Source of the DNA: Octopus vulgaris | Lineage: Eukaryota | DNA length: 64,000 nt | Assembly (NCBI GenBank): GCA_951406725.2 | Contig: OX597817.1 | Span: 124,806,001 to 124,870,000, forward strand | Reading direction: 5' to 3' | In this document: positions 4,363 through 34,204 of the stretch, piece by piece | Numbering within the stretch: position 1 is the stretch's first letter | Layout: every line of letters begins with the position of its first letter | Made by a program: the position numbers and the translations under genes | The notes under the pieces: generated by a model | Told to the model about the DNA's origin: nothing | The model's database searches: none | What the model saw: the letters and a program-made list of their open reading frames with translations, nothing else

Positions 4363-4647
4363 CAACAATTGAGGGTAAAATTAATTAATTAATTATTAAT
4401 CAATTTCACCAAGTGTTCAGTATGTAAAGGGACCATTTAAGGCGAATTCAAATTATTACATTATATAAAAGGGCTTAGTAAAATAAATTACTTTGCCACA
4501 TACTGAACTCATTAGAAATAGTAGCTAAAAAAACTTTTTAAAACTATTTCTAATACTTAAAGAAAATCTCTCTCATATAGTGTTTGCTCAATTCAACTCA
4601 CGAAAGTATGGGGGTAAAGACATTAAAAAATCAAATGCAAAGGTTAT

Positions 4648-4702
4648 TTGAGAACGTACGTTTCAAGATTAGTCAAACTCGACATTTCTATCATCAGCTC
4701 AG
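4648..4702 (-). ncRNA. Type I hammerhead ribozyme (array copy 1)
   Basis: Minus strand TGAG-CTGATGA-tAGAaatGTCGAgtTTGACtaaTCTt-GAAA-CGTACG-TT-CTCA: intact CUGAUGA/GAAA core, stem I UGAG/CUCA, palindromic stem III, GUU cleavage triplet. Confidence 0.8.
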
Positions 4703-5211
4703 AACTCCTTGGTTTGGATTTGAAAACACTGAAAGTGGGAGCATACCCTTTCGGCTTCTTATCGCTTCTGAAGATCTGCTCGAAACTAATAGTGCCAGCA
4801 CACCCAAAATATGCAAGCGAAGAATTTCTGCTCTCCCCTTTCCACCAGCGTGGGTTAAAATCAGTAAACACTATGCTTTTTCGGTAAATCTGTAACATTA
4901 AATAGAGAGAGATGAATTATAATTTCAACAATTGAGGGTAAAATTAATTAATTAATTATTAATCAATTTCACCAAGTGTTCAGTATGTAAAGGGACCATT
5001 TAAGGTGAATTCAAATTATTACATTATATAAAAGGGCTTAGTAAAATAAATTACTTTGCCACATACTGAACTCATTAGAAATAGTAGCTAAAAAAACTTT
5101 TTTAAAACTATTTCTAATACTTAAAGAAAATCTCTCTCATATAGTGTTTGCTCAATTCAACTCACGAAAGTATGGGGGTAAAGACATTAAAAAATCAAAT
5201 GCAAAGGTTAT

Positions 5212-5266
5212 TTGAGAACGTACGTTTCAAGATTAGTCAAACTCGACATTTCTATCATCAGCTCAG
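5212..5266 (-). ncRNA. Type I hammerhead ribozyme (array copy 2)
   Basis: Same sequence as the motif at 4648-4702, 564 bp away. The third copy (5777-5814) is truncated within stem II. Confidence 0.8.
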
Positions 5267-5861
5267 AACTCCTTGGTTTGGATTTGAAAACACTGAAAGT
5301 GGGAGCATACCCTTTCGGCTTCTTATCGCTTCTGAAGATCTGCTCGAAACTAATAGTGCCAGCACACCCAAAATATACAAGCGAAGAATTTCTGCTCTCC
5401 CCTTTCCACCAGCGTGGGTTAAAATCAGTAAACACTATGCTTTTTCGGTAAATCTGTAACATTAAATAGAGAGAGATGAATTATAATTTCAACAATTGAG
5501 GGTAAAATTAATTAATTAATTATTAATCAATTTCACCAAGTGTTCAGTATGTAAAGGGACCATTTAAGGTGAATTCAAATTATTACATTATATAAAAGGG
5601 CTTAGTAAAATAAATTACTTTGCCACATACTGAACTCATTAGAAATAGTAGCTAAAAAAACTTTTTAAAAACTATTTCTAATACTTAAAGAAAATCTCTC
5701 TCATATAGTGTTTGCTCAATTCAACTCACGAAAGTATGGGGGTAAAGACATTAAAAAATCAAATGCAAAGGTTATTTGAGAACGTACGTTTCAAGATTAG
5801 TCAAACTCAACATTAGAAATAGTTTTAAAAAAGTTTTTTTATATATTTCTAATGAGTTCAG

Positions 5862-9785
<3,924 letters not shown>

Positions 9786-19867: not shown

Positions 19868-20569
19868 TATTTTTTGAAAATTTCATTAAAAAAATTTACA
19901 TTTTTCTGGAAGTTGTGAGGCAACAAAGTTGGTCGGGTAGGGGCACACATGTATAGGTAAACCGACATTTGCATTATTTTACAATAATCATTTCAAATCC
20001 TGCTCGGCTGGTTTTTGTCTTATCTTTCAGGGCCCAATAGAATGAGTTAATCGAAATAAAACAGAGTTGTAAACACCCCTATACCTATCCATTCAAATGC
20101 TGACGTCAGTAAAGTTGGTCAAGGAAAACCGGTCTTTTTACTTTTATTGGAATTGATATTGTATTTATTTAAGATGCCAAAGGAGTTCTGTGTTTTTGTT
20201 TTTATGGAGACGCTTCATGAATAATCTAATCTTCTCACTCCTTCGGTCATTGTTTTTATAAGATAAAAATAGTATGATGACTTATAAAATATTTAGAGGA
20301 ATATTAAGTTTTACAGGCCAGATGTTTAAAAACATCGATTACAAATGCCGGTGGAAGATAAACGTTCCAGGGGACATTCTTGTTCTTTCGTTCGTACAAG
20401 GATCGTATTAAGTTTCGGCTTAAAATAAATTATAGATATAAATATAATGTATAGAAATATATAAAAACCAGAATAGAAAATAAACGTCTTAGGCATATAA
20501 AATGAGATAACATGAGATATCAAGGTGTTATAAACTTGAAACGTACTAGAATATCATAGATTATATATA

Positions 20570-23075
20570 TCAAGTCATCCAGTCAGTTCTGTCTAATTTT
20601 ACCTTTTTTTTTTTAGATTTGAATGAAATTTAATAGTATTTGCAAATGTCTAATTCAATTAAAAATTATTTTTATGCATTTGTGTACGTTTAAACTAATT
20701 CAATATTGTTTTACAAAATAATAGACGGTGTCCACAAAGTCTGCGTACATGGGGATTAACACATACTTTTAAAACAAAACAATTTTATTTAATTATAATG
20801 TTAATAAATAATATTTTCAAAGTGATTTCCATCATTTTCAATGCATAACTTGATGCGCCTTGCAAAATTCAGGTGAACTTGATTAAATAAGTCTACATTG
20901 CCATCAATTTAAGCACACTGACTGGTAATGCGTTCTCTCATGTGTTTTAAATCTGTAATCTTTATTGAGTAAACTTTCTCTTTCAAAAAAAAAAAAAAAG
21001 AAATCAAGGGGAGAAAGGTCTGGTGAACGAGGGGACCATTCCATATGACCCCTTCTTTCAATCTAGTGAGGAGGAAAAGTGTCATTAAATCAATCTCTAA
21101 CAGTTGTGGCAAAATGGGTAGGGGCCCCATCCTGCTGAAACTAATTCGGAAGGCCCTCGCCTAGGCGCTCAATTTAAGATATTAATTTGTCTCTCAATAT
21201 ATTTGCATAAGTCTTGTCCGTTACATGTTCAATGAAGAAGGGTCCTAGAACACGAGCTTTCCAAAACCCACACCACACCATCACCTTTTTGCTGTCTTGC
21301 TGTTTGGATAGATCCATCCAATGTGGATTACCTCGAGACCAGTATAGAAGATTCTGTCTGTTGACCTCACCATTTACATAAAACGTAGCTTTGTCACTGA
21401 ACAAAGTTTTTCGTAAAATTGATATTTTCATCCAATTTATATGAAAACCATTCGCACGTCTACACTCGTCTATCAGGATCGTCTTCATTTAAGTGATGCA
21501 ATATCTGTAGGTTGTATCGATGAAACTTTTCCTCAACCAGCATTTTGTGGATGGTTGGTTTTGGAACACCTAACACCGTAGATGTCCGACGAAGTGATTT
21601 TTGGGGGCTAGCTAGCAGAAACTTTAGCCTCGACAGCCTCTTTAGTTTCATCTGAAGTCTTTGGTCGCCCGGAACGGGGTTTATCCGAAACACTGCCTGT
21701 TTCTTTAAATTTCTTGATCAATTTCCTGACGGCAGTAAAATAAATAGGTTGCCTACAAGGGGGTGGAAGATTAAATTCTTCCGCAATTTTGCGATAAGAC
21801 CATCCCTCTCGTCCACTTAATAATACTAACTCGATTCGTTCTTCTTTAGACAGATTCATCATTCGATCTGAGATTCTTTCTTCTTTAGACAGAGCCATCA
21901 TTCGATCATCTGTAGAAAAAATAACAAATAAATTTAGAAAAGTAAAGTATTTTTTAAATTTAATTTAAACAAAAGTAAAAAAGGAAAATTATTATTTCTT
22001 ATATTTATTTGTTTATGTTATGATTTTGTTCCATAAACCCAGACTTCGTGGACACCCTAAAATTGCTTTGATTAAAACCCTTTCAACATGGAAGTATCCA
22101 AGGAGCATTTAAGGCACATATAATTCCTTATGAGTACAATAAAGGTAACTCTGCTGCCGAAGTGACTCGAAACATACACTCAGTTTATGGCAAAGTGCTC
22201 GAATGAAAGAACTTGCAGGAGATCGTCTGCAAAATTGAAGATGAATATCGAACAGGATGTCCAGTTGAGTTTGACAAGCTCCTTGAGGCATTACTTGAAG
22301 AAAATCTGTCATTATCAGTTGAAGAATTGGCAATAAAGCTTACTTCAAACCATACAACAGTTCATCGTCATCTTCAACAACGTGGAAATCCCGAGTTGGC
22401 ATCTGCTCTTCTCTCCATTCTCGCAAACTCATTTCACCCTTTTTCGATAGACTTGTGATGAAAAATGGATTTTCTATCGAAATGTTAGACGTCGTAAACA
22501 GTGGCTTGGTAAAAGGGAAAATTCTCAACCAGAACCGAGAAGGGAACTTCATGGGAAAAAGGTTCTACTCTCTATCTGGTGCGATTGCAAAGGCGTAATT
22601 CACTTTATATTGTTACCACCTAATGCAACAATCAATGCTCAAGTCTACTGTCAGCAATTAGAGCGTTTGAACCAAGCTTTGAAGGAAAAAAGAGCCGCTT
22701 TAGTGACAATGCGCAACCCCACACTGCAAAGATCACATCACAGAAGATTGAAGGGGTCGGTTTGGAAAAATTTCTTCATCCAACTTATTCTCCCGACCTT
22801 ACTCCTTCAGGATACCATTTGTTTCATAGTTTACAGAATTAGTAGGGGGATACAACTTTCGCAAGCCAGGGGAGGTCGAACCTGACATTTCAGAGTTCTT
22901 CGCTTTCAAACCAAAAGAGTTTTACGTTGATGGGATTAAAAAGCTTGTAAATAGATGGAGGTAAGTCATAGATAATTAGGGAAAGTACATTGATGATTAA
23001 CTTTCAATTAAATATAACATTTGATCACTTGTATTCTTTATCCAAAATTCAGACAGAACTTATGGGATGACCTGA
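20570..23075 (+). mobile_element. Degenerate mariner (DD34D-type) element, split by a nested DD41D element
   Basis: TIRs TCAAGTCATCC..AGTTCTGTCT (20570) and AGACAGAACTTATGGGATGACCTGA (ending 23075). The transposase pseudogene starts at 22088 (MEVSKEHLRHI..., HGKKVLLSIWCD, LLPPNATINAQVYCQQLERL, YSPDLTP). Confidence 0.88.
20724..22059 (-). mobile_element. Tc1/mariner DD41D (rosa/Visitor-type) element, pseudogenised
   Basis: TIRs GACGGTGTCCACAAAGTCTG and CAGACTTCGTGGACACCCT. Motifs FSDKATFYVNGEVNRQN, KVMVWCG and FQQDGAP...WSPRSPDLSPLD, with 41 residues counted between the second and third D. Confidence 0.88.
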
Positions 23076-23474
23076 GATATATACACTGGCGAAAATATAT
23101 TTAAGACAGACAATAAAAGTTCTTTTTCTTACAAAATATTTTGTTACTAACACCATACAAATTATCTTTATCTTTTACACCTTATGCAAAATTGATTTCG
23201 CTTTCGAATGATGCCGACAAAAACCATTTTTATACAACTTGAAGAATTCTAATGCTAAATATAATTTTAATGGAGATAACCTGCAGTATATAGTACAACA
23301 TTTTTGTCTCCGTATATGAGCTAAGTATTAATAAAATGTGGTATACGATAAAAATTTCGGATATTTGTCTTAAAACATTCAGACAAGAAAATTCAGATGT
23401 AGCACATGAGGTATTATTCCATACGAATATCCACATATTTATATTAAGAATTTCATGATAAAAATATAGAAATA

Positions 23475-24041
23475 TTGGGTTGTCCGGAAAGTTCTTGCAG
23501 ATTTATAGTAGCTTATCTTTCGACTTATTTTAGAACATGTTTGAGTCCATAAAATAGGATTTGACTACACCTCCATTTGGAGCACAGTTTAATCTATCTT
23601 TTCGTGGAAGAAGGTTTATGTTCCAATAACCTGTGTTAATTCTGTAACCCTTTAAATTAAAAGATGAGAAAAATTCATTATCGGCATTTGATGCTTTGGG
23701 AACCAGACAAAAATTGCTGCGGCTTGGCTGGGGTGACTTACCCCACCCTCCATATTCACCAGATATTACTCCTTCGGATTTCCACTTATTCAGGTCTCTG
23801 CAGAATAGTCTTAATGGTGAAAATTTCAATTCCTTAGATGACGTAAAAAGATATCTTGATGAATTATTTGCCTTGAAACCACCCCAATTCTGGGAAGAGG
23901 GTATTTTTAAGGTAAAGGTAAGATGGAGACGTATTGTGCAACGAAATGGTTCAAATTTGGTTCATTAAAAATGTAATGGCAAGTATTTAGTGACCATGTA
24001 CTTTCCTTTAAAAATCGGAACGAACTTTCCGGACAACCCAA
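23475..24041 (+). mobile_element. Internally deleted mariner element
   Basis: TIRs TTGGGTTGTCCGGAAAGTTC and GAACTTTCCGGACAACCCAA, TA TSD. Retains LPHPPYSPDITPSDFHLFRSLQNSL. A related fragment lies on the minus strand at 44182-44530. Confidence 0.9.
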
Positions 24042-24297
24042 TATAAACATAACAATGAAATACGAATATAAACATGAAAAATAAAAACCTAAATTGAAAG
24101 AGGCGATTAAAATTTTTTCCTAACCTGCAGCCGTTTGTTGTACGAAGTATTCGAAATTCAGCCCTCCTTCCTCAGGGTTCCTTTCTCGAGGTAAAATCCA
24201 GCAGAAAGCAGTAAGGCACTACATGAAGAGTATTCAGTTGGTGAAAGTTCAGTTTTTGAGTATCTATGAATATGAATAAGTGTCATTATATCACATC

Positions 24298-26327
24298 CTT
24301 GTATCTGTGATTTTTTATTACCCACTAGGGGCTACATAGAGGGGACGTTACAAACATTGGGGACATAGAACATCACAATTACATATATATGAGCAAAATG
24401 AAATATGAAAAATGATATATGAAAGCGATGCCGACGGCCCCATCCGTCAGCATCACTTACCTGTCCTTTTTCACCCATTTCCAATTAGCATTCCTTGCTT
24501 ACTTATCACAACGTTCATTTTTCTTTCAGCCCTCTCTATCATTTCATCTTTCATTTGCACTGACTTCCAACACACACCCTCTTCCTCAAACCTTCTCACC
24601 AATATGCCCATATCATCACCATCCACAGCCGTATAACTACAATCTTCATGTTCGTACCAATTGCTTAACACCCCTTTTGCGTTTTGTGTGTCTTTCCCAT
24701 TTATAACACATAAAAAGTGGGTCTTGGGACTTTCTTTGTTCTGTGTGTCTGTTTTTGTTTTTCTCGTAGGCGGGGAGTGGGTGGAATCGCTGTTTGCAGG
24801 GGAAGGATGGGACTCCAAGGGTGTGGGTGGTGTTGGGGTGGGTTGGGGCTTCGCACTGTTTTTCTTTTTCTTTCTTTTTCTCTTCTTTCTCCCTTCTTCC
24901 CACTCTTGCAGTATCTCCTCCTCTTCGGTTTCTTCCCTTTCTGTTAGGTTCTCCTTTTCTTCCTTCTTTTGGGGCTCCGTGCCATCTTCCTTTTCCTTTG
25001 GTGGGGGAGGGCAGTAGGCTCTTATGTGACCCCTCAGGCCACACTTATAGCACCTGGGCGCCCTACCCTCCACCCACACTCTCATAATAATATTCCCAGT
25101 TCTTATACTGTCCGTCAGCTTTTCTATTACTTCCGTCTCCGTCTGTATGTTCATGTCTAATGTGGCACCTCTTACGCCTTCATATTTCATAATGGCGTGG
25201 AGGATGTCCACTTTATCTTCGTTTCCTTTGATTATCGCAGCCGTTATATATTCGCCCTCTAGGTGTGGAGGTATTCCTTCCACCCTAATTCTGGTGGTCC
25301 TTCTATTTAAATACGAGGGGAACAAGTAAATTTTTTCCGTCCTCACCACCTTGGCTGCTATATTCCTGGCTGCTTTCTCACTTTTAAATTGTACCGTTAT
25401 AGTTCCATATTCTAATCCTCTTGTCAGGTACACGATTTCCTCTCCTGTCTGTTTCAGAGCCTCTTCAATTGCTTCCATATTAATTATTTCCATTTTTCTT
25501 CCTCCATTCATATATACTTTATATTTAATGGTTCTACGATTGAACCAGTCTCCGCGCCCTGCTGGAGGCAACAGCTCGACCTCTCCGTTCTCCTCCTCCT
25601 TCATAAACTCCTGGAAGCCCGGCAACTTAGCCAGGTCTATCTCTTTTTCTGTTGACTTCTTCGCCACTCCTGCGGAGGTGCTTTCCATCTTTTCCACCGC
25701 TTCCTCCTCAGATGTCGACGAAATTTCAGAGAAATTTCTCCCGTCCATCTCATCCGAAAAACGGCCTCCCGAACAGAAACAGTGCGACACACAGAACCAG
25801 TGCGACGCGAAACCGCACCAACCGACGTTCAAATTCCACAACAAAACAACTCACTTTTTTTTCTTCTTTACCGAACTTCACAGAGCGCAAAAAACACAAC
25901 CGACGTCAAAAAACAGCCTTGTATCTGTGATTTTTTATTACCCACTAGGGCTACACAGAGGGGACGTTACAAACATTGGGGACACAGAACATCACAATTA
26001 CATATATATGGGTAAATGAAATATGAAAAATGATATATGAAAGCGATGCCGACGGCCCCATCCGTCAGCATCACTTACCTGTCCTTTCACCCATTTCCAA
26101 TTAGCATTCCTTGCTTACCTATCACAACGTTCATGTTTTCTTTCAGCCTTCTCTATCAATTCATCCTTCATTTGCACTGACTTCCAACACACACCCTCTT
26201 CCTCAAACCTTTTCACCAATAAGTCCATATCATCACCATCCACAGCCGTGTAATTACTATCTTCATGTTCGTACCAACTGCTTAACACATCTTTTGCGTT
26301 TTGTGTGACTTTCCCATTTATAACACA
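24298..26327 (-). mobile_element. ORF1/gag-only non-autonomous retroelement: 1620-bp unit plus a partial upstream tandem copy
   Basis: 24298-24710 is repeated at 25918-26327. The unit holds a single ORF and a 3' tail containing AATAAA. Confidence 0.8.
24471..25748 (-). CDS. LINE ORF1-like nucleic-acid-binding protein with CCHC zinc knuckle (about 425 aa from MDGRNF)
   Basis: Uninterrupted ORF. RRM-like segments (ITVQFKSEKAA; TTRIRVEGIPPHL), then VWVEGRAPRCYKCGLRGHIRAYC (CX2CX4HX4C), acidic/basic tracts with an NLS-like RKKRKRKKKK, and a Pro-rich linker. Confidence 0.85.
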   Translation of the reverse strand: MDGRNFSEISSTSEEEAVEKMESTSAGVAKKSTEKEIDLAKLPGFQEFMKEEENGEVELLPPAGRGDWFNRRTIKYKVYMNGGRKMEIINMEAIEEALKQTGEEIVYLTRGLEYGTITVQFKSEKAARNIAAKVVRTEKIYLFPSYLNRRTTRIRVEGIPPHLEGEYITAAIIKGNEDKVDILHAIMKYEGVRGATLDMNIQTETEVIEKLTDSIRTGNIIMRVWVEGRAPRCYKCGLRGHIRAYCPPPPKEKEDGTEPQKKEEKENLTEREETEEEEILQEWEEGRKKRKRKKKKNSAKPQPTPTPPTPLESHPSPANSDSTHSPPTRKTKTDTQNKESPKTHFLCVINGKDTQNAKGVLSNWYEHEDCSYTAVDGDDMGILVRRFEEEGVCWKSVQMKDEMIERAERKMNVVISKQGMLIGNG

Positions 26328-26724
26328 CTAGCAGTATCGCCCGGCGTTGCTCGGGTTTGTAAGGGAAATAACTATATAAGCATTTTTAGAGAGTTATAGC
26401 CAAATAATAGCAAAAAAATGCATTAAAAATTGAAAATAAATTAAGGTAAATTTTTTTTTTAAATCATTGATAATACATCGTAGATATTTTTAGAGAGTTA
26501 CTTCCCTTATATAAAAGCGAAAAATGCATTAATATGGAAAAATATGATGGTAAATTTTTTAAAAATCGTAGACTCATCGTAGACGCGCGCTAATACCCAG
26601 AAGGGCTCGATATGAATCACGACTATAAGATGCCCGCTTTTGGTTACACTGCACCGCAAAATGAGGGAGTAGTTAGGAATCTAAATCGTAGGAGACAGAC
26701 ACACAACTTCACTTTTATATATAA

Positions 26725-26727
<3 letters not shown>
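26328..26727 (-). mobile_element. Non-autonomous Helitron
   Basis: Minus strand begins TCTTTATATATAAAAG and ends CCCGAGCAACGCCGGGCGATACTGCTAG (hairpin plus CTAG). Inserted between A and T. Confidence 0.88.
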
Positions 26728-26789
<62 letters not shown>

Positions 26790-27314: not shown

Positions 27315-27755
27315 AGAATTTGCCCGCTAAATGGAGCTTGCATGTCCAAGACCATCATATATGAAGCTACCGTAAACTCTATAACCACTAAAGACACCGT
27401 TTCGACGAAGAAATACGTGGGCCTTACAGAGGGTAATTTCAAGGCCAGGTTCAATAACCACACTTTGAGCTTTAGGCACTGGAACAAAAGAAAAGCGACA
27501 CAATTATCCAATCATATTTGGTCTTTAAGAGATAAAGGTGTCGATTATAACATACAATGGAAGATTTTGGCCAGATGTAAGCCCTATACTAACGGCAGCG
27601 GATGGTGCGGTTTATGCGACATGGAGAGATGGCTTATCTGGAAAAGCAGCTTAGACCCTACCACATGTCTAAATACAAGGACAGAGCTTTTCGGATCATG
27701 CCCACATGTGACTAAATTTCTGTTACGTTTTTGGTCCCCTAAAGAAAACGGATAG
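27315..27755 (+). CDS. PLE GIY-YIG endonuclease domain (5'-truncated element extending to about 28025)
   Basis: RICPLNGACMSKTIIYEATV...KYVGLTEGNFKARFNNHTLSF...LSNHIWSL...WKIL...CGLCDMER...LNTRTELFGSCPH. Same subtype as 6495-7823. Flanked by (TA)n. Confidence 0.88.
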   Translation, partial: RICPLNGACMSKTIIYEATVNSITTKDTVSTKKYVGLTEGNFKARFNNHTLSFRHWNKRKATQLSNHIWSLRDKGVDYNIQWKILARCKPYTNGSGWCGLCDMERWLIWKSSLDPTTCLNTRTELFGSCPHVTKFLLRFWSPKENG

Positions 27756-29485: not shown

Positions 29486-29554
29486 TTCAAATTTACAGAA
29501 AACAAACGACGAAGACAGGTGAAAGAATCTTTTAGAGAGATAGATTAGATATAA

Positions 29555-29952
29555 CTAGCAGTATCGCCCGGCGTTGCTCGGGTTTGTAAGGGAAATAACT
29601 ATATAAGCATTTTTAGAGAGTTATAGCCAAAAAATAGCCAAAAAAATGCATTAAAAATGGAAAAAAATGGTGGTAAATTTTTTTTAAATCGTTGTCTCAT
29701 CGTAGACATTTTTAGAGAGTTACTTCCCTTATATAATATCGAAAAAATGCATTAAAATGGAAAAAAAATGATGGTAAATTTTTTTTTAAATCGTAGACTC
29801 ATCGTAGACGCGCGCTAATACCCAGAAGGGCTCGATATGAATCACGACTATAAGATACCCGGTTTTGGTTAAACTGCACCGCAAAATGTGGGAGTAGTTA
29901 GGAATCTAAATCGTAGGAGACAGACACACAACTTCTCTTTTATATATAAAGA
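29555..29952 (-). mobile_element. Non-autonomous Helitron (same family as 26328-26727)
   Basis: Near-identical sequence, TC...hairpin-CTAG termini, A|T insertion site. Confidence 0.88.
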
Positions 29953-29989
29953 TAAACTCAAAGAGCAACTAGAAAGTGAAAGTAGTATC

Positions 29990-31957: not shown

Positions 31958-34204
31958 TCTCTTATTATAAAAGGCAGATTTTATCTGCCTCCCTTTGTCA
32001 GTTATAGAAATCTACAATATAGGATTTCTTCAATTACAATTTACTTAGCATTTTTAAGAGTAGAATGCATCGGGTTTTGCCAGGTCCACTTTTTAAAATT
32101 TAAACTCCAATTAAGCAAAATTTACAGAAAACTCACATTCTGGTGTGTATGTCAAATGCTTTTCTTAATGTGTTTTACACCACACGCACACGCACACACA
32201 CAGTGTGCAACGAATAAAATGAAAGTAATTCACCTTTTGTAGTGAGTGACTCTTTCAGTCTGCCACTTCCTCTTTACACACATAGACACGCAAATATATA
32301 AATAAAATTGTAAGCTAACGTGCGTGTGTGTGAGTGTGTGTGTGTGTGAGGGTGCGTGTGTGTGTGTGTGTGTGTGCGTGCGTGCGTGTGCGTGAGTGTG
32401 TGACAGGAAAGTATTTTAGGACGAATATAAGACCTATATCGGCGATGTTTCGCTTGTCGTAGCACAGGTTTCCGTCGATTTCCGTAAAAAACTTTTATTT
32501 TTTTACATAAGTAATGAGAGCGAAAGAGACTAAGAGAAAGCGATTGCATGACGAGGGAAGTTCTTTTGAAGTTACCGTGCATGGGACGCATTGATGTACA
32601 TGTGTGTGTGTGTGTGTGTGTTTGATGGAGTGTGGGAGACAGACAGTATGTTGTGTAAGTGAAGTGCTTCTGTTAGTGTGTGTGAAGAGACAGAGAGAGT
32701 AATGTGTGAAAGAGAGAGATAACTGAAATTTTTTACTCGGTTTATGTGTATATGTATGTATGCATGTATGTGTGTGTGTGTGTGTATGTATGTGTGTGTG
32801 TATGTATGTATGTATGTATGGCCGATTCAGTGTTTACATTTTTTACGGAAATCGACGGAAACGTGTGCTACGACAAGCGAAACATCGCCCCTATATCCAA
32901 GTAACAGAAAGATCGCCCAAAAGTGTATATAGATATTTAAATGTATTTATATATTCATCTATACACAGATGTATGTATAATGTGTGTGGATATATTTCCA
33001 TACACGTAACCATTCACTCCGCACAAAGTTTTTTAGGACGAAAATAAGATCTAAAGTTATCTCTAAGTAGCACAGAGATCGCCCAAAAGTGTATATAGAT
33101 ATATAAATGTATTTATATATTCATCTATGCACACATGTATGTATAACGTGTGTGTATATATTTCCATAGAGGTAACCATTCACTCCATACAAAGTTTTTT
33201 AGCACGAAAATAAGATCTAAAGTTATCTCTAAGAAACAGAAAGATCGCCCAAAAGTGTATATAGATATTTAAATGTATTTATATATTCATCTATACACAC
33301 ATGTATGTATAATGTGCGTGTATATATTTCCATAGAGGTAACCATTCAATCCATACAAAGATTTTTAGGACGAAAATATTTATATATAAAAGAAAGGTTG
33401 TGTGTCTGTCTACTCCGATTTAGATTCCTAACTACTCCCACATTTTGCGATGCAGTTTAACCAAAACCGGGTATCTTATAGTCGTGATTCATATCGAGCC
33501 CTTCTGGGTATTAGCGCGCGTCTACGATGAGTCTATGATTTTACAAATAATTTACCATCATTTTTTTCCATTTTAATGCATATTTTTAAAAATAAACGGA
33601 AGTAACTCTCAAACTTCACACCAATATGCGTGCTCATATGCGACATTTCCTCACACCCTCCTTGCACTTGGCGAAGGCAAAATACCAGGGGATGAAAATG
33701 GTAATATTGCCATCGATTCCATTTGTACCATTGTTAAGACGCCTTCTGATCTCAGAGATGCAGTGTTCCCAGATCTACAAGCTAATTATCAGAATATGGA
33801 TTGGATTGGCAAAAAGGCTATGCTGGCCCCGTGGAATAAAACTGTTCACCATATTAATGATGAAATGCTAAAACTCATTCCTGGGGAAGTCTATGTATAT
33901 CAGTCTATCGATACAACTCCTGACCCAGAGGACGTCATCAACTATCCAATAGAGGTACTCAATTCCTTTGAGCACCCCGGACTACCACCACACTTTCTCA
34001 AACTTAAAGTTGGTGCCCCTATAATGCTCATCAGAAATTTGGTTCCCCCAAAACAATGCAATGGCACACGTTTGATCGTTAAGTCCTTATCTCCCACCGT
34101 AAGCTTATATCAATATTTGCCTGAATAATCATCATAATTCAGTGCAATCATTAACAGTACTTTCAAGCAATTTAGCCCAGAGCAACGCCGGGCAATTCTG
34201 CTAG
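31958..34204 (+). mobile_element. Composite Helitron with PIF1-like helicase fragment
   Basis: A|TC start and 3' GCCCAGAGCAACGCCGGGC hairpin plus CTAG|T. Internal 166-bp tandem repeats (about 32910-33380) and a second Helitron 5' end at about 33378. Confidence 0.8.
33640..34100 (+). pseudogene. Helitron RepHel PIF1-family helicase fragment
   Basis: AMLAPWNKTVHHIN...YPIEVLNSFEHPGLPPHFLKLKVGAPIMLIRNLVPPKQCNGTRLIV is the typical PIF1/Helitron helicase 2B-domain signature. Confidence 0.9.

What the first reader, a model, noticed from the sequence alone, without database searches (positions are those of the whole stretch)
24298..26327. Intact gag/ORF1-only retroelement in partial head-to-tail tandem (HAL1/HeT-A-like organisation)
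Seen: a 1620-bp unit made of a short 5' leader, one uninterrupted ORF of about 425 aa (RRM-like plus CCHC) and a 3' tail of about 170 bp, with no room for RT or endonuclease. Directly upstream lies a slightly diverged 410-bp copy of its own 3' end. The ORF runs into the repeated segment, so these are not classical LTRs. Known analogues: HAL1 (ORF1-only L1 derivatives) and Drosophila HeT-A (gag-only, with the upstream copy's 3' end acting as promoter). Inference: a possibly undescribed protein-coding non-autonomous family that supplies its own RNA chaperone and borrows RT in trans. It is the only apparently complete intact TE ORF in the window.
Basis: partly seen in the sequence, partly recalled or inferred. 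Interest (0 to 1): 0.75.

Follow-up and report, generated by a model that had tools for sequence, protein, structure and literature searches.

The report
Stacking ORF1-only half-LINE of octopus
This is one copy of an old, many-copy octopus jumping-gene family that kept only its RNA-binding gene, likely borrows the cut-and-copy enzyme of a complete relative, and piles up head to tail at landing sites, so the apparent partial repeat is likely a second, broken insertion rather than a promoter or LTR.

Summary
Observation confirmed: a 425-codon ORF (24471-25748, minus strand; predicted two RRM folds plus a CCHC knuckle), a short tail, and a ~400-bp upstream copy of the 3' end. It is a real family, not a one-off deletion: of 50 genomic copies checked, 49 run from ORF1 into the family tail and none into an ORF2. 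The ORF1 core is under purifying selection (dN/dS mostly 0.1-0.25) in a long-lived ORF1-only clade. A young autonomous L1/Tx1-type LINE shares its 3' terminus, arrays and landing site. The tandem is not an LTR: the two copies share no exclusive variants and are separated by an 11-bp duplication of the host repeat, so they are best read as two separate insertions. The upstream piece is frameshifted and cut at a Helitron-type element. Arrays elsewhere reach 19 or more units, and some units carry A-to-G editing marks. HAL1, HeT-A and Ag-Sponge are known ORF1-only kinds, and TSD-separated stacking is known for Tx1-mobilised SINEU-3; I found no paper describing the combination. This scan already reported the same system several times on other DNA of this genome. 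New variant of a known kind.

The parts
24308..25916 (-). Full-length ORF1-only unit (leader, ORF1, 3' tail); 3' end uncertain by about 3 nt
   Evidence: 5' head matches the start of a relative on C18 and of array units; tail ends shortly after AATAAA as in relatives
24471..25748 (-). ORF1, 425 aa: predicted RRM1 (~65-148), RRM2 (~148-229), CCHC knuckle (233-246), low-complexity linker, predicted C-terminal alpha/beta domain (343-422) of no known family
   Evidence: C-terminal part: no usable Atlas hit, no convincing Pfam or PDB sequence hit
24425..24456 (-). 3' UTR hairpin with an unpaired GGGG loop; a conserved CCCC run lies at 24360-24363 (predicted long-range partner)
24297..24307 (-). Downstream copy of the 11-bp target-site duplication (host sequence)
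   Evidence: host sequence of this kind precedes an insertion in L100 and follows the unit in L052
25917..25927 (-). Upstream copy of the same 11-bp duplication, between the two element copies
   Evidence: it carries this locus's own variant (L052 differs at one base)
25928..26328 (-). Second, 5'-incomplete copy (ORF1 codons ~347-425 with a frameshift, plus tail)
   Evidence: 9 private changes, 0 sites shared only with the neighbouring unit
26329..26730 (-). Helitron-type non-autonomous element (TC...hairpin...CTAG, between A and T) at which the upstream copy breaks off
   Evidence: further copies at 29554-29954 and 33376-33613
20333..24296 (-). Right arm of the multicopy composite host repeat that holds the landing site (contains a mariner-type element at ~23474-24043 and Tc1/mariner remnants); class not determined

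Best explanation
The 1.6-kb unit is a copy of a long-lived ORF1-only non-LTR retrotransposon family of the L1/Tx1 group that is likely mobilised in trans by a co-arrayed autonomous LINE, and the 400-bp upstream piece is likely a second, separate insertion at the same target. Mechanism: (1) the unit is transcribed and makes its own two-RRM plus CCHC protein, which coats its RNA in cis (selection shown, binding inferred); (2) the ORF2 protein (endonuclease, RT) of a young autonomous family recognises the shared 3' end, a GGGG-loop hairpin, a U-rich tract, a small terminal hairpin and AATAAA (sharing shown, recognition inferred); (3) ORF2p nicks a preferred site, here a narrow zone in a multicopy host repeat whose A-rich left edge resembles the element's own 3' end, and primes reverse transcription there (site preference shown, chemistry inferred from L1/Tx1 knowledge); (4) each insertion duplicates a piece of target and leaves a usable site beside the resident copy, so copies stack head to tail with target duplications between them (shown as pattern). 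In the window the upstream copy later lost, or never had, its 5' part; it ends at a Helitron-type insertion.
For: No ORF2: 30 of 30 best core hits and 19 of 20 hand-picked more divergent hits run into the tail, 1 of 20 is cut off, 0 of 50 run into an ORF2 start; 97 of 97 classifiable units at 75% or more core identity are ORF1-only (4 more ran off the locus end). From the other side, 25 of 30 ORF2 loci show an upstream ORF1, all only 34-38% identical (5 gave no hit). Selection: window copy against 65 distinct intact copies, core dN/dS 0.08-0.36 where computable, mostly 0.1-0.25, with dS above 2.4 or saturated against the B subfamily. Tree: 28 ORF1-only rows and 2 unclassified rows form one clade, SH-aLRT 100, with no ORF2-bearing row (quick tree, 38 of 40 representatives). 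Partner: ORF2 of 1131 aa with Exo_endo_phos, RVT_1, zf-RVT, closest solved relative human L1 ORF2p, E 3e-70, against 1e-24 for R2; 43 of 150 hits 100% identical over 107 aa and about 57 of 150 in open frames of 1128-1134 codons (hand count); it lies in the same arrays and shares the last ~45 nt. Target: of the 30 best host loci, 14 carry a family 3' end within a ~65-nt zone, 15 are empty, 1 holds another tail (with two mis-anchored rows corrected by eye). Duplications between stacked units and at both array ends (C2 array, L091, L094, L100). Independence of the two window copies: 0 exclusive shared sites, 9 private changes in the upstream copy. RNA route: 5 of 66 distinct intact ORFs carry 22-37 private A-to-G changes on the sense strand with 0-1 T-to-C; three of them sit in fetched arrays whose other units do not show this.
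Against: Trans-mobilisation by this particular LINE is inferred from shared ends and sites only; several autonomous families are present. Tx1-clade membership was not tested against named Tx1 references. Very homogeneous runs (C10, C8 arrays, 1673-1676-bp period) and the near-identical terminal unit in many copies of a second, Helitron-type host could partly come from DNA-level duplication or hitchhiking. Site preference is loose: at least two hosts, unique sites (C2 array, L113) and an ORF2 of another element (C18) are used. The sample of host loci is biased to those most like the window's host. The window copy itself has a private 34-bp deletion near its start codon, so it may not be active. 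The left arm of the host is missing from the window, so the upstream copy's own left junction cannot be read.
Confidence: 0.85

Rival explanations
1. HeT-A-like design: the upstream copy's 3' end is the promoter of the downstream unit, so the partial tandem is functional and self-propagating.
For: Head-to-tail arrays of ORF1-only and autonomous units are the rule here, as at Drosophila telomeres (PMC13534243, passages).
Against: 23 full-length units abut host DNA directly with no tail piece at their 5' end (14 of 19 regions and 9 of the 13 small loci printed); target duplications, not tail tags, separate units; the upstream piece is independently decayed. That HeT-A copies carry 5' tags from the upstream unit is recalled, not from a call.
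Confidence: 0.07
2. The arrays, including the window's pair, arose mainly by DNA-level tandem duplication, unequal exchange or carriage inside Helitron-type hosts, after a few original insertions.
For: Near-identical units at constant spacing in the C10, C8 and C1 arrays; the same terminal unit at the same site in many copies of a ~1.1-kb Helitron-type host; chimeric units that swap C-terminal parts between subfamilies.
Against: For the window pair no shared derived site. Mixed subfamilies, variable-length target duplications, tail-only truncated insertions and singly A-to-G edited units inside arrays need separate RNA-mediated events; purifying selection needs repeated passage through protein function. 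Likely a contributing process, not the main one.
Confidence: 0.06
3. One-off internal deletion of an autonomous LINE, or an LTR / Penelope pseudo-LTR element with a gag-like ORF.
For: Two direct repeats flank most of an ORF that has a CCHC knuckle.
Against: Well over a hundred ORF1-only units and none with ORF2; the repeats are 4.4% divergent, share no exclusive variants and the upstream one is closer to copies on other contigs (97.1%, 96.7%); ORF is two-RRM ORF1-type, not capsid or GIY-YIG.
Confidence: 0.02

Closest known systems
HAL1 (half-L1) of mammals; Ag-Sponge (CR1-derived) (PMC5753468 and PMC5786205, passages read)
   Same: Non-autonomous LINE derivative that encodes only ORF1p and keeps a 3' end for the partner's RT; L1-group ancestry as for HAL1.
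   Different: Two-RRM plus CCHC ORF1 with an added C-terminal domain; site preference with TSD-separated arrays of up to 19 or more units. The primary HAL1 paper (PMC2923044) was not held, so its range outside mammals was not checked.
HeT-A and other ORF1-only telomeric Jockey-clade elements of Drosophila (PMC13534243, passages; PMC5786205, passage)
   Same: ORF1-only families that persist as clades, depend on ORF2 of partner families and stand in mixed head-to-tail arrays.
   Different: L1/Tx1 group, not Jockey; interstitial sites on many contigs; endonuclease-type target duplications between units; short 170-nt tail; no sign of upstream-tail tags.
Tx1-clade targeted LINEs: Tx1 in Tx1D, Tx1-Mar and SINEU-3 in Mariner-N4_AMi, Tx1-9_AMi in Harbinger (PMC4494074, passages and section 15)
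   Same: Preference for a site inside another transposon; tandem insertions sandwiching a TSD, explained there as sequential insertion; non-autonomous riders that share the target.
   Different: The rider here codes for its own ORF1 protein under selection instead of being a non-coding SINE; several hosts are used; arrays are far longer.

Membership tests
ORF1-only non-autonomous LINE (HAL1-like kind) | Encodes ORF1p only; no ORF2 between ORF1 and the 3' tail across copies | tested here: met
   49 of 50 copies with tail, 0 of 50 with ORF2; 97 of 97 close units
ORF1-only non-autonomous LINE (HAL1-like kind) | Amplified as a family with ORF1 under purifying selection | tested here: met
   150 of 150 scored hits at 64-100% identity; core dN/dS mostly 0.1-0.25; one clade
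ORF1-only non-autonomous LINE (HAL1-like kind) | 3' end shared with an autonomous LINE that mobilises it in trans | tested here: inconclusive
   Last ~45 nt and a GGGG-loop hairpin shared, same arrays and site; mobilisation itself not testable
HAL1 proper (mammalian L1-derived) | Descent from a mammalian L1 with an L1-type ORF1p | tested here: not met
   Named relatives are octopod proteins; no Pfam L1 ORF1 (Transposase_22) match among 25 members
HeT-A | Jockey-clade partner and telomeric arrays | tested here: not met
   Partner ORF2 is L1-like; arrays lie deep inside large contigs
HeT-A | Promoter in the upstream copy's 3' UTR | not testable with these tools
   No strand or start data; indirect sign against: 23 full-length units without tail tag
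Tx1 clade of LINEs | Partner ORF2 = APE endonuclease, RT, C-terminal zinc motif, L1 group | tested here: met
Tx1 clade of LINEs | RT groups with named Tx1 families (Tx1, Keno, Kibi, Koshi) in a tree | not tested
   No named reference sequences in hand; homologue search gave almost only unnamed records. The Tx1 label rests on domain layout, target preference and recall.
Tx1 clade of LINEs | Target preference for a repeat or transposon, with TSDs | tested here: met
   14 of 30 host loci occupied in a ~65-nt zone; TSDs; preference is loose, several targets
LTR or Penelope pseudo-LTR element | Terminal repeats made together in one insertion, hence each other's closest relatives | tested here: not met
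   0 exclusive shared sites; upstream copy closer to copies on other contigs

The most novel reading that the evidence does not exclude
The ORF1-only lineage is not a mere passenger but the array-building partner of the octopus L1/Tx1 system: its extra, fast-evolving C-terminal domain (no known family, swapped between subfamilies) steers ribonucleoproteins to the ends of resident copies, as HeT-A Gag steers TART, and a GGGG-loop/CCCC pseudoknot common to all partner tails is the key that ORF2p reads. This would be a telomere-like division of labour at interstitial sites, outside the Jockey clade.
Probability: 0.15. Interest if true: 0.75.

Novelty: new variant of a known kind. Interest (0 to 1): 0.5.

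Why it matters
It is unclear why ORF1-only LINE families persist. One recent paper notes repeated ORF2 loss in telomeric but not in non-telomeric Jockey elements (PMC13534243, passage). Here ORF2 loss recurs in a non-telomeric but array-forming L1/Tx1 system (the window's clade plus at least two other ORF1-only tails), which suggests that stacking at a shared site is what favours ORF1-only partners. Young intact copies of both partners exist, so cis-need for ORF1p, trans-use of ORF2p and the 3' recognition structure can be tested directly. It also explains spurious 'hypothetical' gene models stitched across arrays in public octopus annotation.

Tried and rejected
LTR, pseudo-LTR and local tandem duplication for the window pair: rejected. 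snRNA, tRNA or other Rfam RNA as target: 0 gathering-level hits in 9 loci, 63 kb. A conserved splice-donor-like motif after the stop codon: present in only 67 of 130 A/B tails and 0 of 8 autonomous tails, dropped. A-to-G hyperediting of the window copy itself: no (7 of 28 private changes). Fold of the C-terminal domain alone: pLDDT 45, unusable; in the full model it is confident but no listed structural hit covered it, so its fold is untested; sequence searches gave nothing convincing. Class of the host repeat: no terminal inverted repeats over 11 bp in three copies, only mariner/Tc1 remnants in Pfam; left unclassified. Expression: no RNA holder on record; contigs of four runs only guessed to be RNA cover much of the ORF, mostly at 85-99% identity, i.e. 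relatives; not used as evidence. One part of the unit was not covered by read laying. Careful tree did not finish; the quick tree is cited, with two rows left out (L093, duplicated knuckle; L079, internal deletion). Literature: 8 searches found no paper on ORF1-only Tx1/L1 arrays in cephalopods; PMC13282606 (first third, term search, one supplement table) lists L1-Tx1 families without structure. Repbase/Dfam entries and subscription papers could not be seen and may hold such families.

Full report
Observation. The minus strand holds an open frame at 24471-25748, 425 aa. A 400-bp segment at 25928-26328 repeats the unit's 3' end, including the last ~80 codons; it is 95.6% identical over 406 columns and carries a frameshift. 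Both copies are followed by the same 11 bases, CAGATACAAGG. No ORF2 hit lies in the window. The full unit has two private deletions, 34 bp at about 25757 and 9 bp at about 25702, absent from 5 of 5 relatives; relatives start their ORF about nine codons earlier.

Organism. The genome has 2.8 Gb in 227 contigs. The only homologue in the first protein search is an Octopus sinensis protein, and 9 of 10 profile hits looked up are named from Octopus or Argonauta. An octopod is inferred.

Protein. Pfam gives only a weak zinc knuckle (24 of 25 family members match zf-CCHC at E 0.1 or better). The model from a 25-row alignment has two compact domains before the knuckle and one after a disordered linker. 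Foldseek matches tandem RRM proteins and VIA-align matches RRMs for residues 65-148 at Z up to 9.5. Atlas neighbours are CCHC and ZCCHC3-type RNA-binding proteins at 0.90-0.92, a lead only. The C-terminal domain (343-422) is shared by the A and B subfamilies at 15-75% identity, does not align convincingly with the ends of the autonomous ORF1s and matches no family.

Family, and the refuting test. The core search returned 150 of 150 scored hits at 64-100% identity. All 30 best loci run from ORF1 into the family tail within 391-739 nt. Of 20 hand-picked, mostly more divergent loci, 12 showed the tail by pattern and 7 by alignment, and 1 is cut off; none has an ORF2 start after ORF1. In the larger fetched regions 97 of 97 classifiable units at 75% or more core identity are ORF1-only; the 3 ORF2 rows in the 50-75% bin are 25-29-residue knuckle matches. 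Conversely, 25 of 30 ORF2 loci have an upstream ORF1 of 34-38% identity and 5 gave no hit. A quick tree of 38 of 40 representatives puts 28 ORF1-only and 2 unclassified rows in one clade (SH-aLRT 100, long stem); two other ORF1-only rows group with the ORF2-bearing side on long branches that may attract. Pairwise dN/dS of the window copy against 65 distinct intact copies is mostly 0.1-0.25 in the core, 0.27-0.54 in the linker and 0.45-0.80 in the C-terminal domain, with dS above 2.4 or saturated between subfamilies (pairs are not independent). Several copies join an A core to a B-type C-terminus. 77 of 130 A/B units examined keep a full-length frame. So the ORF1-only state is old and the protein is needed.

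Partner. ORF1+ORF2 elements stand in the same arrays. Their ORF2 has endonuclease, RT and zf-RVT domains and is nearest to human L1 ORF2p among solved structures. The family is young: 43 of 150 hits are identical over 107 aa, and about 57 of 150 lie in open frames of 1128-1134 codons (hand count). It shares the last ~45 nt with the ORF1-only units. All groups also have a GC-rich hairpin with GGGG at its apex 127-202 nt from the end: unpaired in 84 of 84 distinct A/B tails and 7 of 8 autonomous tails, but in 0 of 10 tails of the other ORF1-only families by the same rule. In 32 A/B tails the stem is kept mostly through one-sided changes, with one two-sided change. A CCCC run downstream can pair with the loop, with family-specific extensions of 4-8 bp; shuffles reach the observed length in 2-147 of 2000 trials. 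This pseudoknot is a hypothesis.

Target and tandem. The DNA downstream of the unit is a multicopy composite repeat (40 of 40 scored candidates match) that continues to 20333. Of the 30 best loci, 14 carry a family 3' end within about 65 nt of the same place, 15 are empty and 1 holds another tail (two rows that the script anchored wrongly were corrected). In L100 host sequence of the 11-bp kind precedes an insertion, so these bases are target, and their copy between the two window elements is a target-site duplication; it carries this locus's variant. The two window copies share no exclusive site, while the upstream one has 9 private changes and is closer to copies on other contigs. They are therefore read as two insertions; their order cannot be fixed. 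The upstream copy breaks at a Helitron-type element that starts TC, ends hairpin-CTAG and sits between A and T; neither the rest of ORF1 nor the host's left arm occurs further up in the window, so truncation at insertion and later loss cannot be told apart.

Arrays elsewhere. Fetched arrays hold 19 (running on), 17, 15, 13, 11 and 5 knuckles, mix subfamilies, and show target duplications of variable length between units and, in the C2 array, at both ends. A second host is a ~1.1-kb Helitron-type repeat in which the site lies in a decayed ORF1-like fragment. 5 of 66 distinct intact ORFs carry 22-37 private A-to-G changes on the sense strand, as expected from edited RNA templates; the lead came from earlier notes and was tested here. 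Homogeneous runs and host carriage show that DNA-level copying may contribute.

HeT-A reading. In 14 of 19 large regions and 9 of 13 small loci printed, the first full-length unit abuts host DNA without any tail piece; the rest lie behind another element's tail. This argues against transcription from an upstream tail, but start sites were not measured. Read data were uninformative.

Comparison. ORF1-present non-autonomous LINEs are known from L1 (HAL1), Jockey (HeT-A) and CR1 (Ag-Sponge) (PMC5786205, passage; PMC5753468, passages). Tx1-clade preference for DNA transposons and TSD-sandwiching tandem insertion of SINEU-3 are described in PMC4494074 (passages and section 15). ORF1-only clades in telomeric arrays are described in PMC13534243 (passages). 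Eight searches found no description of the combination in cephalopods; Repbase and the HAL1 paper were not seen. The Tx1 label is inferred, not tree-tested. Earlier notes of this scan describe the same system on other pieces of this genome; none lies near this window.

Verdict. A real, selected, ORF1-only family with a plausible autonomous partner; the partial tandem is a by-product of repeated targeted insertion. New variant of a known kind; interest 0.5.

Noticed in passing
window 26329-26730, 29554-29954, 33376-33613: Three copies of a ~400-bp Helitron-type non-autonomous element with TC...CTAG ends, a subterminal hairpin and internal ~100-bp repeats.
   Followed up: partly
window 6045-7823 (+) and 27342-27755 (+): Frames ending in GIY-YIG-like (Penelope-type) sequence beside TA microsatellites; label from reading the translation, not searched.
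   Followed up: no
window 4527-5954: Three-copy direct repeat with 564-bp period, first two copies 99% alike.
   Followed up: no
window 23474-24043 and ~20750-21900: Mariner-type element with inverted ends and a decayed Tc1-type transposase, both fixed parts of the multicopy host repeat.
   Followed up: partly
L081, L083, L084 (host repeat, ~1.5 kb right of the target) and region C10: A short common repeat, probably a SINE, ends in the same terminal motif as the L1/Tx1 family, so it may use the same RT.
   Followed up: no
L053, L057, L058, L059, L060, L065, L076: Even 'empty' host copies differ strongly in the ~30 bp right at the landing site while flanks are 90-97% alike; footprints or escape from targeting are possible.
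   Followed up: no
L041/L042-L043 and other copies of the second host: The landing site lies inside a decayed ORF1-like fragment carried by a ~1.1-kb Helitron-type repeat.
   Followed up: partly
P0141, P0149: Public gene models made of repeated C-terminal ORF1 pieces, apparently stitched across array units.
   Followed up: no
G000:C27:32966256-32987752 and C30:10437077-10447949: Arrays of the autonomous element alone at a period of about 5.3 kb.
   Followed up: no
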